IMG/VR virus record: IMGVR_UViG_3300045988_182793
Coordinates: 1-64,000 of that record
DNA length: 64,000 bases
Source of the DNA: a virus
Reading direction: 5' to 3' (one strand)
Shown here: positions 6,745-51,875 of the stretch, piece by piece
Numbering within the stretch: position 1 is the first letter of the stretch
How the letters are laid out: every line of letters starts with the position of its first letter
Notes under the pieces: generated by a model
Database searches by the model: none
Seen by the model: the letters and a program-made list of their open reading frames with translations, nothing else
What the model was told of the DNA's origin: nothing
Position numbers and translations under genes: made by a program

Positions 6745-6790
6745 CCTTGCGCTGCTGTGCGAACTTCGTACAATAAGAATTGTACAAGAG
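6745..6790 (+). promoter_or_regulatory. copy 1 of conserved phage promoter motif (CTGTGCGAACTTCGTACAAT)
   Basis: matches TGTGCGAA-n5-TACAAT consensus shared by >=13 other copies. Confidence 0.6.
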
Positions 6791-6912
6791 AAACGGCAAG
6801 AGACATTTGTAGTGATTGTAGTTGGTCGCCACGAATCGATGCCGTGTCTGCTTGCGCATAATTACCTCTTTTCGAAGCCCACAGGTCATTCTCTCACCTG
6901 TGGGTTTTGTTT
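6790..6912 (+). ncRNA. candidate small RNA: motif promoter to terminator with no convincing ORF
   Basis: promoter at 6757-6782, hairpin CCCACAGGT...ACCTGTGGG + TTTTGTTT at 6878-6912. Confidence 0.3.
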
Positions 6913-6946
6913 ATTGCGGAATCGTGCGAATTGCGGACAATTAAAG
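6911..6946 (+). promoter_or_regulatory. copy 2 of conserved promoter motif (ATCGTGCGAATTGCGGACAAT) driving flotillin gene
   Basis: motif ends ~90 nt before ATG 7035. Confidence 0.6.
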
Positions 6947-7034
6947 ACAGAGCGATTGCGAGATGGGGCGATACCGATGCAGTAGGAATGAGAATCTTAG
7001 CAGCTAAAAAACTGAATGTGGAGAAATAAAAATT

Positions 7035-8678
7035 ATGGTATACGTGATTGGAATTGTAGCAGCCCTGATTATTCTCTTTGGATTTCTCTGCTACAAGAAA
7101 GCTCCGCCCACGGAGGCTATCGTTGTAACTGGCTTTGGCCTGTCTAAGCCTAAAGTGGTTTGCGGAAAGGGTACATTTGTTCTGCCCGTTCTTCAACGGG
7201 CTGACCGACTAAATATGCGCCTTTTGAAAATCGATGTCAAGACTCCTGAAACAGGTGTTAAGACGAAGAACGGCGTAAGTCTCTGGATTGACTCTGTTGT
7301 CACGATTCAAGTCTACAGCGAAAACTCTACCGTTCTGGATGAAGAAGTGAAGGCATCCGGTCTGAAAGACGCCAAGGCGTACATCATGTCCCGCCAGCAG
7401 GCAGCCATCTCGAACTTTCTCGGCATGAACGAGCAGGGCATCAATGACAAAGTCAATGACGTTCTGCAGGGCAATTTGCGAGAGATTGTCTCCGATATGA
7501 CCGTTGACCAAATTCTGACGAACCGCAAGCAGATGGCTGTGAGCGTTATCGAGAATGCTCGCCCCGACCTTGCTAAGATGGGACTTGAGGTTGTGACTTT
7601 TAATGTCCAGGACATCAGGGATGCAGTGGATGTTCAGGGCCACAATCACGGCGTTATCGAAGCTATCGGCATCGAACAGGAAGAGCTCGTAAAGAAACAG
7701 GCTGAAATTGCCCGTGCTCAGGCTGCCCGTGATGTAGCCTGCGCGAAGGCCGATGCTGAGATGGCTGCAAATGCCAAGGAAGTTGAAGCGCAGACTGCGA
7801 TTGCAAAACGCAACAATGAATTGCAGCTCGCCAAGGCAAAGCTGAAAGCTGAAGCTGATAAAGCTGCGGCTGACGCAGATGCTGCCGGTCAGATTCAGAT
7901 GAATCTCCGCGCCAAAGAAATCAAAGAAGCGGAAGCGGATGCTGAAATCGCCAAGCAGAAGAAAATGGTAGACCTTGCCGCACAGGAAGCCGAGGTCCAG
8001 CAACGCAAACTGGATGCGGAAGTCCGCAAACAGGCAGATGCTGACCTGTACCGCCGCCAGAAAGAGGCAGAAGCCAAGAAATATGAGGCGGAACGTGCAG
8101 CTGAGGCACAGAAGTTCTCCAAGCAGCAGGAAGCAGAAGGCATTGAGCTTGTCGGTAAGGCCGAAGCTGAAGCGATTCGTCAGAAAGGCTTGGCTGAAGC
8201 GGAAGCCATGAAACAGAAAGCAGAGGCATATAAGCAGTATAACGATGCGGCTGTGGCTGAAATGCTCATCAAGGTTCTTCCTGACATTGCCAAGAGCGTG
8301 GCTCAGCCTTTGTCCAGCATTGATAAGGTTTCTATCATTGGCGGTGATGCCTCCGGCGTATCCGGCGTTTCCGGGAACGTTCCTATCCTGATGGCTCAAA
8401 CCATGCAGACGGTGAAAGAAGCGACCGGCATTGACATGGGCGAAATTGTCCGTGCCAACAGCATCCAGGCAAAGACAGACCGCAACATCAACATTATGAC
8501 TCAATGTGAACAGCCTGAGAATAACAAAGAGAAAGGAGGTGCCAAGGCAATGGAACGCGTAGAAGGCGGCTATCTGATTCATGAGAAGAATCTCAACGGT
8601 GAGGAAGTCACTCATTTTCGACCGGATGTGACCGAAGAAGAGAAGGCTATCATGAAAGACAAAAAAGCCAAAGATTAA
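7035..8678 (+). CDS. SPFH/band-7 flotillin-family protein (547 aa)
   Basis: N-terminal TM helix, SPFH core, long Ala/Glu/Lys-rich coiled coil (AEADKAAADADAAGQIQ...) typical of flotillin/YqiK. Confidence 0.8.
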   Translation: MVYVIGIVAALIILFGFLCYKKAPPTEAIVVTGFGLSKPKVVCGKGTFVLPVLQRADRLNMRLLKIDVKTPETGVKTKNGVSLWIDSVVTIQVYSENSTVLDEEVKASGLKDAKAYIMSRQQAAISNFLGMNEQGINDKVNDVLQGNLREIVSDMTVDQILTNRKQMAVSVIENARPDLAKMGLEVVTFNVQDIRDAVDVQGHNHGVIEAIGIEQEELVKKQAEIARAQAARDVACAKADAEMAANAKEVEAQTAIAKRNNELQLAKAKLKAEADKAAADADAAGQIQMNLRAKEIKEAEADAEIAKQKKMVDLAAQEAEVQQRKLDAEVRKQADADLYRRQKEAEAKKYEAERAAEAQKFSKQQEAEGIELVGKAEAEAIRQKGLAEAEAMKQKAEAYKQYNDAAVAEMLIKVLPDIAKSVAQPLSSIDKVSIIGGDASGVSGVSGNVPILMAQTMQTVKEATGIDMGEIVRANSIQAKTDRNINIMTQCEQPENNKEKGGAKAMERVEGGYLIHEKNLNGEEVTHFRPDVTEEEKAIMKDKKAKD

Positions 8679-8790
8679 AGACAACATGAAAAGAGGGTGA
8701 CTCGAAAGAGCCATCCTTTTTTCTGTTGTGACGCAAACGAAAAGTTCATGGTAGCCATCCAATTTGGGTGACTGTCTTTTTTGCATGTTA

Positions 8791-50729: not shown

Positions 50730-50850
50730 TACTCCTAGAACGAAACTTTGATTCGGGTTCTTTCAGCAAAAAGCGTAGGAACCAAAATCATACGAAATGA
50801 TTGTGTTGACACATAAAAACAAGTATAATATATACAAGGAAGTGATAATA

Positions 50851-51303
50851 ATGGTTCTGTATCATGGCAGCGATGTAATAGTCCGCAACCCTGAGGTCAG
50901 AAAAACAAGGTACGCCAAAGATTTTTCATGGGGATTCTATTGCACTAGCAACTACGAACAAGCCGCTCGCTGGTCAAAAAAAGGCAGGTCTCGTGGTATT
51001 GTCAACGTGTTTGAATATACAGAATCTCCTATGCTAAATATTAAGAAATTCCCCGAAATGAGTGATGAGTGGCTTGATTTTATTGCTATATGTCGCTCGG
51101 GCAAACATCATGACTATGATATTGTGGAAGGACCCATGGCGGATGACACCATTTGGAACTACGTCAACGACTTTCTAAGCGGTGATATTAGCCGTGAAGC
51201 TTTTTGGGCGTTGGCAAAATTCAAGCATCCCACGCATCAAATCAGCTTTCACACGGAAGTCGCTTTGAAATGTCTCTCTTTTAAGGAGGCGATTGAAGTA
51301 TGA
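50851..51303 (+). CDS. DUF3990-family protein
   Basis: MVLYHGSDVIVRNPE...DFSWGFYCT N-terminal signature. Confidence 0.55.
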   Translation: MVLYHGSDVIVRNPEVRKTRYAKDFSWGFYCTSNYEQAARWSKKGRSRGIVNVFEYTESPMLNIKKFPEMSDEWLDFIAICRSGKHHDYDIVEGPMADDTIWNYVNDFLSGDISREAFWALAKFKHPTHQISFHTEVALKCLSFKEAIEV

Positions 51304-51749
51304 CTGAAACTGCAACCTACAGCAAAAACGATGTCTTTTATACCTGCAGCCTGATTGAATATATCGGCCGCGTTACGAGGAATCATCGCAAGGATGTGGT
51401 TTCTGCTCTTGGCACAAACGGAGTCAAGGCAATTCTCGACTCAGCGGATGTGTTTCACTGCCAGAGCTTTGAGCAATCTGCCGATGAAATTTGTGAGCTT
51501 TTTCCTGTGCCGGAAGGAACGTATGATACGGTGTCTAACTGCCATTACAAGGTTCCATCTTATACAGATATCGGAAAAGTGTACCAGCGCATCATCTTTG
51601 ACTGTACTAGCACTCCTAGTGTCCAGGATGTAATTGATGTATTTTCCTCGTTCATTAGCGATGACATCTCAGATTTTAATACTGCAACTTACTATTGTAA
51701 TCCGAGCTATTTGTACCACTCATACAAGGCCGGAAAACTACTGGATTGA
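51300..51749 (+). CDS. DUF3791-family protein (partner of DUF3990)
   Basis: conserved pairing and ATGA overlap. Confidence 0.45.
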   Translation: MTETATYSKNDVFYTCSLIEYIGRVTRNHRKDVVSALGTNGVKAILDSADVFHCQSFEQSADEICELFPVPEGTYDTVSNCHYKVPSYTDIGKVYQRIIFDCTSTPSVQDVIDVFSSFISDDISDFNTATYYCNPSYLYHSYKAGKLLD

Positions 51750-51839
51750 TTTTCAAAAGCAATAGCAATCAAGACCACTGCCCCAAAAAGGGTGGTGGTC
51801 TTATTTTTTTGCACAACACTTACCATAAATTACCAGAAA

Positions 51840-51875
51840 GAAAAACATTGTGCATCTGTGCGAATTGCATATAAT
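51840..51875 (+). promoter_or_regulatory. copy 13 of conserved promoter motif (TCTGTGCGAATTGCATATAAT)
   Basis: consensus match. Confidence 0.6.

What the first reader, a model, noticed from the sequence alone, without database searches (positions are those of the whole stretch)
6745..51875. One conserved promoter-like motif with a fixed spacer sequence recurs >=14 times upstream of + strand genes
Copies occur near 6757, 6923, 8803, 11723, 14312, 17200, 19600, 20350, 26252, 26776, 26882, 29018, 43370 (weak), 44685 and 51853. All share TTG(C/T)AC - n3-4 - TGTGCGAAT - n5 - (T/G)A(C/T)AAT, in the same orientation. Each sits 20-100 nt before a start codon. Ordinary sigma70 promoters do not conserve the spacer, so the invariant GTGCGAAT between -35 and -10 suggests a phage-encoded sigma/regulator or an element-specific transcription programme. 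It also gives a map of transcription units and marks the core element as at least 6.7-52 kb.
Basis: seen in the sequence. Interest (0 to 1): 0.75.

Follow-up and report, generated by a model that had tools for sequence, protein, structure and literature searches.

The report
Phage promoter family with conserved spacer
A large uncultivated gut phage starts most of its accessory and DNA-metabolism genes from one stereotyped host-type promoter that carries an extra conserved box between the -35 and -10 elements, and about a third of the copies also encode a previously undescribed structured leader RNA that ends in a terminator.

Summary
All 15 listed copies exist, all lie on the + strand, and all lie in non-coding DNA. 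They score 29-44 bits with a 34-nt matrix, against a shuffle maximum of 17.7. Two weaker copies were added.

The window is part of a roughly 200-270 kb gut phage that carries 18 tRNA genes and swappable counter-defence cassettes. The motif is a sigma-A-type promoter: -35 TTGC/TTGAC, a 16-nt spacer and -10 TAnAAT. An extra box, (G/T)TGCGAA, sits at about -24 to -17.

In a sample of related contigs chosen without reference to the promoter, the box is as conserved as the -35 and -10 elements. Canonical extended -10 promoters in the same genome lack it. I did not find it as a multi-copy signal in bacterial chromosomes.

The class is not confined to 6.7-52 kb. Copies lie beyond the window and up to about 120 kb away on related contigs.

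About one third of the promoters are fused at a fixed register to a 95-100 nt leader RNA with no Rfam match. It has a three-way junction, a conserved linker and an intrinsic terminator, followed by a ribosome-binding site.

Best reading: these are class-specific, non-late phage promoters whose box is read by a trans-acting protein. What reads the box, and whether it activates or represses, is unresolved. The closest precedents are T4-type PeSL cassettes and early promoters.

The parts
6747..6774 (+). Promoter copy 1 (TTGCGC-16-TACAAT, box TGTGCGAAC). It drives a roughly 140-nt RNA that ends at the terminator directly before copy 2.
   Evidence: 41.2 bits; sequence and downstream hairpin.
6914..6941 (+). 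Promoter copy 2 (TTGCGG-16-GACAAT, box CGTGCGAAT), upstream of the SPFH/flotillin gene at 7035.
   Evidence: 38.6 bits; upstream terminator hairpin; Pfam Band_7.
8799..8826 (+). Promoter copy 3, upstream of the 8881-9684 / VWA operon.
   Evidence: 37.6 bits; start codon 54 nt after the -10.
11714..11741 (+). Promoter copy 4 (box CGTGCAAAT), 342 nt upstream of the PLD-nuclease/helicase gene at 12084.
   Evidence: 37.1 bits.
14301..14328 (+). Promoter copy 5, upstream of the 90-aa HTH gene 14412-14684. A cassette breakpoint against L118 falls at 14321, inside the motif.
   Evidence: 42.7 bits; HTH_28; breakpoint.
17190..17217 (+). Promoter copy 6, the best match. It lies upstream of 17257-17853 and the AcrVA2-like gene.
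   Evidence: 43.6 bits; Pfam of the relatives' genes.
19604..19631 (+). Promoter copy 7, a weak variant (box CGTACGATA), upstream of 19672-20280.
   Evidence: 29.6 bits, 21.8 leave-one-out.
20339..20366 (+). Promoter copy 8. Its leader contains an intrinsic terminator (20400-20436) before the 65-aa gene and the ResIII helicase.
   Evidence: 41.7 bits; terminator.
23941..23968 (+). Weak extra copy (box ATTGCGGGT). It is followed only by a terminator-like hairpin and then the convergent minus-strand gene. A breakpoint against L122 falls at 23938.
   Evidence: 21.0 bits.
26243..26270 (+). Promoter copy 9, divergent from the 628-aa minus-strand HTH_3 gene. Breakpoints against L121 and L123 fall at 26242.
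   Evidence: 40.2 bits.
26766..26793 (+). Promoter copy 10. It drives a degenerate leader RNA (26801-26874) that ends in a terminator.
   Evidence: 32.9 bits; RNA model hit of 16.8 bits; terminator 26838-26873.
26872..26899 (+). Promoter copy 11. Its -35 (TTTTTC) lies in the T-run of the preceding terminator. The start codon at 26923 is 23 nt after the -10.
   Evidence: 37.6 bits.
29013..29040 (+). Promoter copy 12. Its leader carries a terminator-like hairpin at about 29062-29103, before the UvrD-like gene.
   Evidence: 33.4 bits; sequence.
38051..38078 (+). Weak extra copy (TTGACC-16-TAGAAT, box TATGCGAGC), placed after a strong terminator.
   Evidence: 19.5 bits; terminator 37981-38010.
43359..43386 (+). 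Promoter copy 13, a weak variant (box TATACGAAC), upstream of a variant leader RNA and the MBL (Apyc1-like) gene.
   Evidence: 29.3 bits.
43394..43476 (+). Variant leader RNA (GUGAA...UUCAC stem, AUUCACAAU linker, terminator 43438-43472).
   Evidence: RNA model R1, 42 bits, E 1e-5, hit reported as 43380-43476; fold z-score -7.9.
44676..44703 (+). Promoter copy 14 (TCGACA-16-TACAAT), fused to the full leader RNA.
   Evidence: 36.6 bits.
44711..44813 (+). Full leader RNA: a 5' GUACGAUAGAUAACA element, a three-way junction, the linker AUUCACAAUUUCGC and an intrinsic terminator. The ribosome-binding site and the start codon at 44817 follow.
   Evidence: R1, 88 bits, E 3e-14; fold z-score -5.4; no Rfam family.
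51848..51875 (+). Promoter copy 15, upstream of a 112-nt structured leader and the tandem-HTH operon 51988-53981.
   Evidence: 40.4 bits. The promoter and leader are near-identical in relatives whose six-HTH protein is 72-91% identical.

Best explanation
The motif is the core of one phage-specific class of sigma-A-type promoters. Its anatomy is -35 TTGC/TTGAC, a rigid 16-nt spacer, -10 TAnAAT, an A/T-rich discriminator and a start at a G 8 nt after the -10.

These promoters head the rightward, non-structural transcription units of an uncultivated gut phage of roughly 200-270 kb, probably one that infects Bacillota. The genes they serve are counter-defence cassettes, DNA-metabolism genes, regulators and accessory genes.

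Host RNA polymerase with its primary sigma factor supplies -35 and -10 recognition. This step is inferred from the geometry.

The additional box (G/T)TGCGAA at about -24 to -17 is read by a sequence-specific protein that works at the promoter together with the polymerase. I consider a phage-encoded helix-turn-helix protein the most likely reader. The conserved tandem-HTH proteins at 51988-53981 are the obvious candidates. This arrangement places the whole class under one switch. The existence of a reader is inferred. Its identity and sign are not shown. I lean about 60:40 towards a positive or co-factor role over a shut-off operator.

In about a third of the copies the promoter is fused at a fixed register to a 95-100 nt structured leader RNA. 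The RNA ends in an intrinsic terminator a median of 29 nt before the start codon of the next gene. This adds a second, RNA-level gate to those genes, by attenuation or antitermination. The anatomy of this gate is shown. The regulation is inferred.

The promoter and terminator modules also flank swappable gene cassettes, as PeSLs do in T4-type phages.
For: Promoter nature:
- There are 15 + 2 copies, all on the + strand, scoring 29-44 bits against a shuffle maximum of 17.7.
- All 15 cores lie in the 13% of the region that is non-coding.
- In each of the 123 related loci fetched at that stage, every hit lies on a single strand of the locus (325 hits).
- 58 unique leader RNAs start at one fixed distance from the motif: 45 lie exactly 36 nt after the first motif base, and the low-scoring ones still show the same layout.

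Selection on the box:
- Loci were retrieved by the RNA 5' sequence alone. Of 58 non-redundant upstream regions, 56 carry the promoter.
- In that sample TGCGA carries 1.3-1.4 bits per position, against 1.1-1.6 for TTG and 1.0-1.3 for the -10. Neighbouring spacer positions carry 0.1-0.5 bits.
- Flanking DNA outside about -36 to +15 has no information content.

Class specificity:
- Three near-consensus TTGAC-17-TGnTATAAT promoters in the tRNA region lack the box and are conserved in relatives.
- In 185,579 bacterial genomes the composite occurs as scattered singletons. The exceptions are metagenome-assembled-genome (MAG) contigs that look like this phage.

Non-late regulon:
- The first genes downstream of 65 non-redundant promoters include sortases, HTH proteins, methyltransferases, a topoisomerase, an RnlB-like antitoxin, Cas5d, an MBL and 'late transcriptional activator' PHROGs.
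- Large neighbouring ORFs include DnaE, an NAD-dependent ligase and helicases.
- No capsid, portal or terminase gene appeared in any of these searches.

A possible positive role for the box: promoters with a consensus-like TTGAC -35 tolerate T or A in place of G at the first box position (odds ratio 9.6; counts).

Leader RNA:
- The covariance model finds 81 hits, 59 of them unique.
- The terminator helix is 98% paired, and 9 of its 12 pairs show compensatory changes.
- A third hairpin (P3) of at least 5 bp abuts CGUAC in 72% of 83 unique RNAs, against 16% of shuffles, with 33 distinct arm pairs.
- 115 of 128 unique RNAs are followed by a ribosome-binding site and an ORF.

Cassette context:
- Near-identical genomes differ by whole cassettes, and three breakpoints fall inside motifs.
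- 76 of 1029 breakpoints lie within 10 nt of a motif, against 17.9 expected.
Against: - There are no transcription start data, because no cultured relative exists.
- No protein has been linked to the box. GTGCGAA is neither enriched nor clearly avoided outside promoters, so there is no independent footprint of a binding protein.
- Nearly all instances come from one phage species complex. The six-HTH protein is 97-98% identical in most contigs. The copies are therefore paralogues, and part of the conservation could reflect common descent plus gene conversion. Clade-specific flavours at semi-variable positions point that way.
- The correlation between -35 type and box variant is confounded by promoter lineage.
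- One host promoter in Faecalimonas MAGs, upstream of a leuS-like gene, has the same composite. This leaves open that host polymerase or a host factor reads the box.
- If these are immediate-early promoters, no newly made phage protein can be needed for their first firing.
- The excess of breakpoints near motifs is not separable from a general intergenic bias.
Confidence: 0.5

Rival explanations
1. There is no dedicated reader. The promoters are a family of very strong promoters optimised for the host polymerase. They descend from one ancestral cassette and are kept alike by duplication, recombination and gene conversion between copies, as proposed for T4 early promoters and PeSLs. On this view the spacer box is inherited, or tunes DNA shape or a polymerase contact.
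For: - T4 early promoters show 'additional regions of consensus' beyond the UP, -35, TGn and -10 elements (PMC2988021).
- PeSLs are conserved over about 100 bp, sit upstream of ORFans in hyperplastic regions and mediate cassette exchange (PMC2839356).
- Here all copies belong to one phage species complex.
- Semi-variable positions show lineage-specific flavours, such as TAGAAT with GGCA against TACAAT with TGCA.
- Breakpoints are four-fold enriched at motifs.
- A host leuS-like promoter has the same composite.
- The box is not avoided elsewhere in the window.
Against: - Conservation is position-specific. The positions either side of TGCGA vary freely among the same copies. That pattern fits selection rather than recent copying.
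- The box is GC-rich and lies at about -24 to -17, where sigma-70-type holoenzymes are not known to read sequence (general knowledge).
- The hexamers are sub-consensus (TTGC, 16-nt spacer, frequent GAYAAT, no TGn), while canonical TTGAC-17-TGnTATAAT promoters exist in the same genome without the box. These are therefore not simply the best possible host promoters.
Confidence: 0.2
2. The box is a binding site for a host regulator that lets the phage sense host physiology, as the Spo0A boxes in phi29 early promoters silence the phage in sporulating cells.
For: - phi29 carries 0A boxes (5'-TGTCGAA-3') at its early promoters, and Spo0A blocks polymerase binding there (PMC2731898).
- The box here, TGTGCGAA, and the start of the leader, TGTACGA, both resemble TGTCGAA with one extra base. 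Promoter 26252 has an exact TGTCGAA just after the -10.
- The likely hosts are Clostridia. Phage contigs are binned with Clostridiales, and Faecalimonas MAGs turned up in the same scan.
- A host promoter carries the same composite.
Against: - The invariant core TGCGAA is one base out of register with TGNCGAA, and there are no tandem boxes 3 bp apart.
- The composite is not a multi-copy signal in any bacterial genome fragment fetched.
- No host genome was available to test for a regulon.
Confidence: 0.1
3. The box is a loading site for a lambda-Q-like antiterminator. Q binds between -35 and -10 of PR', joins the polymerase at a promoter-proximal pause and makes it read through the terminators that follow many of these promoters and separate the cassettes.
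For: - The box lies between -35 and -10.
- 24 of 97 non-redundant promoters have a terminator within 131 nt downstream, and 29 of 97 have one within 80 nt upstream. The opposite-strand control gives 1 of 97 for each.
- Leader terminators sit directly before the ribosome-binding site.
Against: - Only about a third of promoters carry the conserved initial transcribed element. That element reads better as the 5' strand of an RNA structure.
- Its best -10-like hexamer, TAGATA, matches 3 of 6 positions and lacks the final T, so a sigma-dependent pause is not evident.
- No Q-family or other antiterminator domain was found in the window ORFs scanned.
Confidence: 0.07
4. The promoters are recognised by a phage-encoded sigma factor or polymerase whose specificity includes the box.
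For: The extended motif is rigid and is conserved from about -35 to +1. The class is phage-specific.
Against: - The conserved blocks are exactly TTG and TAnAAT at a 16-nt spacing, the signature of a primary sigma factor.
- tblastn with SigA regions 2-4 found no sigma-70-family ORF in 1.19 Mb of held phage sequence. Only generic HTH matches appeared in the Pfam scans.
- The genes served include counter-defence genes, which are expected to be needed before any phage protein is made.
- Only part of the genome could be inspected.
Confidence: 0.05

Closest known systems
PeSL (promoter-early stem-loop) cassettes of T4-type phages RB49/phi1, T4/PST and KVP40/nt-1 (PMC2839356, PMC4122927)
   Same: Both are many copies of one stereotyped sigma-70-type promoter combined with terminator stem-loops. 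The stem-loops can lie upstream or downstream of the -10. Both are concentrated in hyperplastic regions in front of non-essential or ORFan genes, all co-oriented, and both flank cassettes that differ between near-identical genomes.
   Different: The PeSL promoter matches the host consensus and has an AT-rich upstream region. No separate conserved spacer box is described for it. Here the hexamers are sub-consensus and the spacer box is the best-conserved block. The host is a Bacillota-type organism and the phage is unrelated to T4 as far as can be seen. The role of the promoters in recombination is only weakly supported here. The stem-loop in a third of the copies is part of a larger structured leader RNA.
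T4 early promoters, which carry extra consensus positions (PMC2988021)
   Same: Both are phage promoter classes used by the host primary-sigma polymerase that share conserved positions beyond the canonical elements.
   Different: T4 early promoters are better than consensus (UP, -35, TGn, -10). The promoters here lack TGn, have a 16-nt spacer and have a GC-rich box. The T4 extra positions are attributed to polymerase optimisation and Alt modification, not to a separate factor.
T4 middle promoters with the MotA box, and AsiA/MotA sigma appropriation (PMC2988021)
   Same: Both combine a host -10 element with a phage-specific box upstream of it that defines a temporal class.
   Different: The MotA box is centred at -30 and replaces the -35 element. 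Here TTG at -35 is retained and the box is centred near -21. No MotA or AsiA homologues were detected.
Lambda PR' with its Q-binding element, and lambda CII sites TTGC-N6-TTGC (PMC2629481 for CII; Q from general knowledge)
   Same: Q binds DNA between -35 and -10 and acts on terminators downstream. CII reads two TTGC repeats one helical turn apart around the -35. Here the layout is TTGm-N6-kTGC in a 10-bp phase.
   Different: A lambdoid phage has one PR', whereas this phage has dozens of copies. No Q or CII domain was found. The repeats lie about 4 bp closer to the -10 than in CII-dependent promoters (from memory, not tested). A pause element is not evident.
Dispersed asymmetric operators: mycobacteriophage L5/Bxb1 stoperators and P1 C1 operators (general knowledge)
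   Same: Both are short asymmetric sites present in many copies across a phage genome, in one orientation relative to transcription, putting many units under one protein.
   Different: Those sites occur at variable positions, including away from promoters. Here the box exists only inside the promoter at one register and is not enriched elsewhere. No repressor has been identified.
Spo0A boxes at phi29/Nf early promoters (PMC2731898)
   Same: A regulator site is embedded in the early promoters of a lytic Firmicutes phage. The sequences resemble each other (TGTCGAA against TGTGCGAA).
   Different: The spacing differs by one base. There are no tandem boxes. phi29 has six sites rather than dozens. 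Binding was not tested.

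Membership tests
Sigma-70/sigma-A-type bacterial promoter | A -35 hexamer related to TTGACA | tested here: met
   TTG carries 1.7-1.9 bits in 97 non-redundant copies and 1.1-1.6 bits in the promoter-blind sample. The fourth base is C, or A in one subtype. Positions 5 and 6 are free.
Sigma-70/sigma-A-type bacterial promoter | A -10 hexamer related to TATAAT (A at position 2, T at position 6), 16-18 bp from the -35 | tested here: met
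   The hexamer is kAyAAT or TAnAAT, and the spacer is always 16 nt.
Sigma-70/sigma-A-type bacterial promoter | Transcription initiates 6-9 nt downstream of the -10 | not testable with these tools
   The only evidence is indirect. A conserved RNA element begins at a G 8 nt after the -10 in 45 of 58 unique cases, and within 1-2 nt in most of the others.
PeSL cassettes (T4-type phages) | A composite of an early-type promoter and a terminator stem-loop | tested here: met
   A terminator-like hairpin lies within 80 nt upstream in 29 of 97 copies and within 131 nt downstream in 24 of 97. The controls give 1 of 97. In one copy the -35 lies inside a terminator T-run.
PeSL cassettes (T4-type phages) | Concentrated in hyperplastic regions, upstream of non-essential or ORFan genes | tested here: met
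   The cassette content differs between genomes that are 97-99% identical. The downstream genes are mostly accessory or unknown.
PeSL cassettes (T4-type phages) | Insertion, deletion and replacement breakpoints lie in the motif (recombination between copies; mini-circles) | tested here: inconclusive
   Three of about 16 breakpoints in the window fall inside motifs. Overall, 76 of 1029 lie within 10 nt against 17.9 expected. More than 90% of breakpoints lie elsewhere, and intergenic bias was not excluded. Mini-circles are not testable.
Lambda Q-type antitermination unit | A Q-family protein is encoded | tested here: not met
   No Q or other antiterminator domain appeared in about 60 window ORFs scanned with Pfam. 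The rest of the genome was not seen.
Lambda Q-type antitermination unit | A -10-like pause-inducing element in the initial transcribed region of every unit | tested here: not met
   A conserved initial transcribed element is present in only 33 of 97 promoters. Its best hexamer, TAGATA, matches 3 of 6 positions.
T4 MotA-dependent middle promoter | The box replaces the -35 element and is centred at -30 | tested here: not met
   The -35 TTG is retained, and the box lies at -24 to -17.
Spo0A 0A box | The 7-mer TGTCGAA (TGNCGAA), usually as tandem boxes 3 bp apart | tested here: not met
   The core is TGCGAA preceded by G or T, which differs from the 0A box by one base of spacing. No tandem partner is present (consensus from PMC2731898).
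Dispersed phage operators (L5 stoperator / P1 C1 type) | The site recurs independently of promoter context and a cognate repressor is encoded | tested here: not met
   GTGCGAA occurs outside promoters 2 times, against about 5-7 expected. It is neither enriched nor significantly depleted. No repressor was identified.
Any Rfam 15 family (for the leader RNA) | A match to a curated covariance model | tested here: not met
   There was no hit at gathering score in the window apart from tRNAs and an HDV-like ribozyme. The best E-value hits on 44600-44900 score 12-17 bits, far below threshold.

The most novel reading that the evidence does not exclude
The promoter, leader RNA and terminator together form a previously undescribed phage-wide regulatory cassette. 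One trans-acting phage factor would read the spacer box on DNA. A second, RNA-level switch would act on the leader, which consists of a three-way junction with the invariant 5' GUACGAUAGAUAMCA, the linker AAUUCACAAUUYYGC and an intrinsic terminator. That switch could be a protein-dependent or ligand-dependent attenuator, or a put/nut-like antitermination signal. It would split one promoter class into immediate and delayed genes in a prevalent jumbo gut phage. The leader would then be a new structured RNA class with dozens of copies per genome.
Probability: 0.3. Interest if true: 0.8.

Novelty: new variant of a known kind. Interest (0 to 1): 0.6.

Why it matters
- **Transcription map.** The motif gives a sequence-only map of transcription units for a prevalent but uncultivated gut phage of 200 kb or more. 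One of its proteins is indexed in about 400 blocks of the assembly collection.
- **Regulatory anatomy.** The motif separates at least two promoter classes in that phage: boxed promoters and canonical extended -10 promoters.
- **A testable handle.** The box is a well-defined 6-8 bp target. It could be used to look for a new promoter-bound regulator or polymerase co-factor in Clostridia-type hosts, where phage transcription control is almost unstudied.
- **Counter-defence and cassette exchange.** The genes served include many counter-defence cassettes, so the switch bears on how such genes are timed. The promoter and terminator modules may also be the joints at which these cassettes are exchanged.
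- **The leader RNA.** If it is regulatory, it would be a new multi-copy cis-acting RNA.

Tried and rejected
- **Short core alone.** The 9-mer and 7-mer are not enriched in the window. Only the composite motif is.
- **Avoidance of the box outside promoters.** This would be a footprint of a binding protein. The result was not significant.
- **Close relatives among deposited phages.** I found none by megablast of 20 kb or by tblastn of two proteins. The helicase hits only 50%-identical genes of small Firmicutes phages.
- **Host-chromosome signal.** The scan of 185,579 genomes returned scattered singletons at about the chance rate for a pattern of about 32 bits. The exceptions were phage-like MAG contigs and one orthologous Faecalimonas promoter.
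- **Phage sigma factor.** tblastn with SigA regions 2-4 found nothing below E = 3.
- **Known RNA families for the leader.** None matched.
- **P1 helix covariation.** Both strands are nearly invariant, so the test is uninformative. The candidate antiterminator helix is 81% paired, with only weak covariation.
- **Orthologous-promoter constraint analysis.** The relatives are too similar (86-100% identity) to separate the motif from its flanks.
- **Walking the genome.** Only proteins of the window can be looked up, so only about 10 kb beyond the 3' end was seen. The 5' look-up failed.
- **Other motif readings.** I considered LexA (Cheo) box, CRP/FNR-type dyad, Rex box, ECF-sigma and extended -10 readings by inspection and rejected each for wrong spacing or missing half-sites.
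- **MerR-type spacer activator.** Rejected because the spacer is 16 nt and the site is not a dyad.

Full report

A 34-nt position weight matrix was built from the 15 copies. It scores them 29.3-43.6 bits, or 20.8-41.0 bits when each copy is left out of its own matrix. The best score in 50 shuffles of both strands was 17.7, and the best minus-strand site in the window scores 9.1.

Two weaker + strand copies came to light at 23950 (21.0 bits) and 38060 (19.5 bits). All 15 cores lie in the 13.3% of 6.5-52 kb that is non-coding.

The short core alone is not over-represented. TGTGCGAAT with one mismatch occurs 24 times against 20.7 expected, and GTGCGAA occurs 14 times against 11.0 expected. The signal is the composite motif.

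The true geometry is cTTGCnn-N3-yGTGCGAAy-N4-kAyAAT. This gives a -35-like TTG(C/A), a 16-nt spacer and a -10-like TAnAAT. The distance from the -10 to the first plausible start codon is 23-342 nt.

**2. What is the window?**

The window carries 18 tRNA genes at 57.2-63.4 kb. Its genes are typical of the accessory and counter-defence load of a large phage:
- SPFH/flotillin, VWA, a PLD nuclease-helicase and RRXRR-HNH
- an AcrVA2-like protein, a ResIII helicase, NADAR and RlaP
- a UvrD-like helicase, an EcoRI-type methyltransferase and GmrSD-HNH
- a DUF285 surface protein, an Apyc1-like metallo-beta-lactamase, a radical SAM protein and DUF3990
- three tandem-HTH proteins and an AAA ATPase

The helicase protein is encoded with an identical sequence on ENA gut-metagenome contigs of 203-267 kb. 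It is indexed in 393 blocks of the assembly collection. The motif pattern recovers more than 117 stretches of IMG/VR viral contigs.

Neighbouring genomes that are 97-99% identical differ by whole cassettes. Examples are type I-C cas genes, a type I restriction-modification system and IS605/TnpB elements in place of the window's genes. The region is therefore hyperplastic.

No close relative exists among deposited phage genomes. The six-HTH protein at 53013-53981 is 97-98% identical on about 60 IMG/VR contigs. These include the contigs whose promoter copies look most diverged. Nearly all instances therefore belong to the pan-genome of one phage species complex.

**3. Extent and orientation of the class**

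In each of the 123 related loci fetched at that stage, every matrix hit above 20 bits lies on a single strand of the locus. There were 325 hits and 157 unique 34-mers.

The class is not bounded by 6.7-52 kb:
- Two further copies lie about 3.7 and 6.5 kb past the window's 3' end. One sits in front of a Phage_lysozyme2 gene.
- On contigs of 160-190 kb, motif-bearing loci lie up to about 120 kb from the six-HTH gene.

The first genes downstream of 65 non-redundant promoters include sortases, HTH proteins, DNA methyltransferases, SPFH, YopX, a topoisomerase, DUF3990, an MBL, a UvrD-like helicase, an RnlB-like antitoxin, Cas5d and 'late transcriptional activator' PHROGs. ORFs of at least 400 aa near motifs include DnaE, an NAD-dependent ligase, a topoisomerase, helicases and methylases.

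No capsid, portal or terminase gene was seen in any of these neighbourhoods. One 'tail protein' PHROG and one Ig-domain 'structural protein' PHROG were the only structural-type matches. The class therefore serves non-late genes, as far as the held sequence shows.

**4. Is the spacer box under selection?**

Ninety-seven non-redundant instances were compared, each differing from the others by more than 25% over 100 nt. Information content is confined to TTGC, yGTGCGAA, GCA, kAyAAT and a short A-rich discriminator. The flanks carry none.

That sample was selected with the motif itself, so I drew a promoter-blind sample. Loci were retrieved by the first 15 nt of the downstream leader RNA only. Results:
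- Of 58 non-redundant upstream regions, 56 carry the promoter.
- TGCGA carries 1.3-1.4 bits per position.
- This equals the -35 TTG (1.1-1.6 bits) and the -10 (1.0-1.3 bits).
- Adjacent spacer positions carry 0.1-0.5 bits.

The box is thus as constrained as the two hexamers.

Two subtypes exist: TTGCnn-N4-GTGCGA and TTGACG-N4-(T/A)TGCGA. A consensus-like -35 goes with a non-G first box base (odds ratio 9.6; counts). This could mean functional compensation, but it is confounded by promoter lineage.

The layout can also be read as a direct repeat TTGm-N6-kTGC, one helical turn apart.

**5. Is the box a host feature?**

Three near-consensus promoters in the tRNA region lack the box. They have the form TTGACC/TTGACT/TTGCGA-16/17-TATAAT, and two of them have TGn. 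All three are identical in relatives. The phage therefore has at least two promoter classes.

A scan of one genome from each of 185,579 bacterial and archaeal species returned scattered single matches across unrelated phyla. This is about the chance rate for a pattern of about 32 bits. Multi-copy loci came only from MAG contigs that look like this phage.

One orthologous host promoter in five Faecalimonas MAGs, upstream of a leuS-like gene, has the same composite: TTGACAaatTGTGCGAATatgaTACAAT. One locus cannot distinguish chance from a host-polymerase or host-factor element.

GTGCGAA is neither enriched nor significantly depleted outside promoters. No sigma-70-family ORF was detectable in 1.19 Mb of held phage sequence. 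No Q, CII, MotA, ANTAR or CAT domains appeared among the window ORFs scanned.

**6. The other half of the module**

In 33 of the 97 non-redundant promoters, an element TGTACGATAGATAyCA starts 7 nt after the -10. It is an exact match in 22 of them.

The element is the 5' end of a 95-100 nt RNA (median 99 nt from G1 to the end of the T-run). The RNA has these parts:
- GUACG pairs with a downstream CGUAC (the P1 helix).
- P1 encloses a hairpin built on the conserved GAUAGAUA (P2) and a variable hairpin (P3).
- A conserved single-stranded linker, AAUUCACAAUUYYGC, follows.
- An intrinsic terminator with a semi-conserved 5' arm (GCGGACUUCC or GCAGACUCACC) ends the RNA.

A covariance model built on 21 copies finds 81 hits (59 unique) in 100 loci. 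In the window it scores 88 bits at 44711-44813, 42 bits at 43380-43476 and 17 bits at 26801-26874.

Of 58 testable unique RNAs, 45 begin exactly 36 nt after the first motif base. The rest begin within a few nucleotides of that, and even the low-scoring upstream regions show the same TTG-box-TAnAAT layout. The RNA therefore starts at the presumed transcription start site.

Support for the individual helices:
- The terminator helix is 98% paired, and 9 of its 12 pairs show compensatory changes.
- P1 is 93% paired but almost invariant, so it is uninformative.
- A candidate antiterminator helix, formed by the linker 3' end with the terminator 5' arm, is 81% paired with weak covariation.
- The variable hairpin next to CGUAC is at least 5 bp long in 72% of 83 unique sequences. 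Among shuffles the figure is 16%. There are 33 different arm pairs.
- Minimum-free-energy folds give the three-way junction, linker and terminator, with z-scores from -3.9 to -7.9 for the full-length leaders.

No Rfam family matches.

115 of 128 unique RNAs are followed by a ribosome-binding site and an ORF. The start codon lies a median of 29 nt after the T-run. This is a cis-acting leader rather than a free-standing small RNA in most cases. The genes behind it are diverse, so a metabolite-specific riboswitch is unlikely.

More generally, 24 of 97 promoters have a terminator within 131 nt downstream, and 29 of 97 have one within 80 nt upstream. The opposite-strand control gives 1 of 97 for each.

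**7. Mechanism**

The following points are shown by the data:
- There is a rigid, oriented, intergenic promoter-like module.
- Selection on the box equals that on the hexamers.
- The class is phage-specific and coexists with canonical promoters.
- The class is associated with non-late genes.
- A third of the copies are coupled at a fixed register to a structured leader and terminator.

The following points are inferred:
- Host sigma-A holoenzyme uses TTG and TAnAAT.
- The box is read by a separate protein acting at the promoter, which puts the class under one switch.
- The leader terminator gives a second gate.

I lean towards a factor that acts with the polymerase, as an activator or co-factor, for three reasons. 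The hexamers are sub-consensus. The -35 type and the box variant are correlated. The box has no role outside the promoter context.

A shut-off operator for the early-to-late transition is nearly as likely. If these promoters fire immediately after injection, they cannot depend on newly made phage protein.

The highly conserved tandem-HTH proteins are candidate readers, and they are themselves expressed from a boxed promoter at 51848-51875. Nothing links them to the box computationally.

**8. Comparison with known systems**

- **PeSL cassettes.** The closest analogues are the PeSL cassettes of T4-type phages. They are stereotyped early promoters plus stem-loops in hyperplastic regions that mediate cassette shuffling (PMC2839356, PMC4122927).
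- **T4 early promoters.** These carry 'additional regions of consensus' (PMC2988021).
- **Breakpoints.** Three of about 16 cassette breakpoints in the window fall inside motifs, at 14321, 23938 and 26242. Across all loci, breakpoints are four-fold enriched within 10 nt of a motif: 76 of 1029 against 17.9 expected. More than 90% lie elsewhere, and intergenic bias is not excluded.
- **What differs.** Unlike PeSLs and T4 early promoters, these promoters are not super-consensus. Their most conserved block is a GC-rich spacer box, which I have not seen described in those papers.
- **Resemblances that fail on at least one defining feature.** These are the lambda Q-binding element, CII sites (TTGCN6TTGC, PMC2629481), the MotA box, dispersed operators of the L5 or P1 type, and Spo0A boxes in phi29 (TGTCGAA, PMC2731898). 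Details are in the membership table.

**9. Verdict**

The promoter class is a new variant of a known kind, namely phage class-specific promoter cassettes. The attached leader RNA is the most novel item and deserves its own follow-up.

A limited literature search found no prior description.

Noticed in passing
window 44711-44813, 43394-43476, 26801-26874; many loci (e.g. L002:1019-1114, L027 with 6 copies): A conserved leader RNA of about 95-100 nt starts at the presumed transcription start site of about a third of the boxed promoters. It has a 5' GUACGAUAGAUAMCA element, a three-way junction, the linker AAUUCACAAUUYYGC and an intrinsic terminator, followed by a ribosome-binding site. No Rfam family matches it.
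   Followed up: yes
window 57112-57192 (+): This is an HDV-like ribozyme (Rfam HDV-F-prausnitzii, 46.6 bits against a gathering score of 44). It ends 5 nt before tRNA-Thr(UGU) at 57197, which suggests ribozyme-assisted tRNA 5' processing, as described for gut-phage 'theta' ribozymes (from memory).
   Followed up: no
window 57197-63412 (+): An array of 18 tRNA genes is interspersed with small ORFs. ARAGORN calls an odd tRNA at 58621-58696 with a two-base 'anticodon' (ca). The Rfam tRNA model does not confirm it.
   Followed up: no
window 56922-56950, 61212-61240, 62339-62366 (+): Three near-consensus promoters (TTGAC-17-TATAAT type, two with TGn) lack the spacer box, all in the tRNA region. They form a second promoter class and are identical in L244 and L245. 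The copy at 62339 contains TTGCGAAC/TTGCGAAAAC repeats out of register with the box.
   Followed up: partly
window 51988-52515, 52505-53023, 53013-53981 (+): Three adjacent proteins are made of 2-6 tandem HTH_23/HTH_28/Mor-like modules. The six-module protein is 97-98% identical across about 60 viral contigs whose accessory regions differ, so it is a core gene. The operon's promoter and its 112-nt hairpin-rich leader (51876-51987) are almost invariant, even where the six-HTH protein is only 72% identical.
   Followed up: partly
window 6747-6941 and 26766-26899: These are 'empty' cassettes: a boxed promoter, a short RNA and a terminator, followed immediately by a second boxed promoter. At 26872 the -35 lies within the terminator's T-run. 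They may be remnants of deleted cassettes or stand-alone small RNAs.
   Followed up: partly
window 17850-18797, 23416-23937, 43497-44657; L118:18803-22196; L121:16926-20146: The region is dense in counter-defence-like genes: AcrVA2-like, NADAR and an Apyc1-like MBL. In near-identical genomes the same slots hold type I-C cas genes (Cas5d/Csd1/Cas7), a type I restriction-modification system, a GIY-YIG-HTH gene or IS605/TnpB elements.
   Followed up: partly
window 24142-26028 (-): This is the only long minus-strand gene inside the promoter field. It encodes 628 aa with an HTH_3 domain and a weak, probably spurious, RNA_pol_Rpb1_1 match (E 0.005). It is divergent from promoter 26243. It is interrupted by a Y1-transposase element in L123 and replaced in L122, so it is dispensable.
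   Followed up: no
L132:2563-2590, L156, L171, L191, L192 (Faecalimonas MAGs): A host chromosomal promoter upstream of a leuS-like gene has the full composite, TTGACAaatTGTGCGAATatgaTACAAT. It is a possible hint to the host, or to a host-side reader of the box.
   Followed up: partly
L128, L178 (DYBQ01000017.1, DYBQ01000001.1, 'Clostridiales bacterium HRGM_Genome_2451'): Contigs of 37 kb and 224 kb in a bacterial MAG carry multiple boxed promoters. They are probably this phage binned into a MAG.
   Followed up: no
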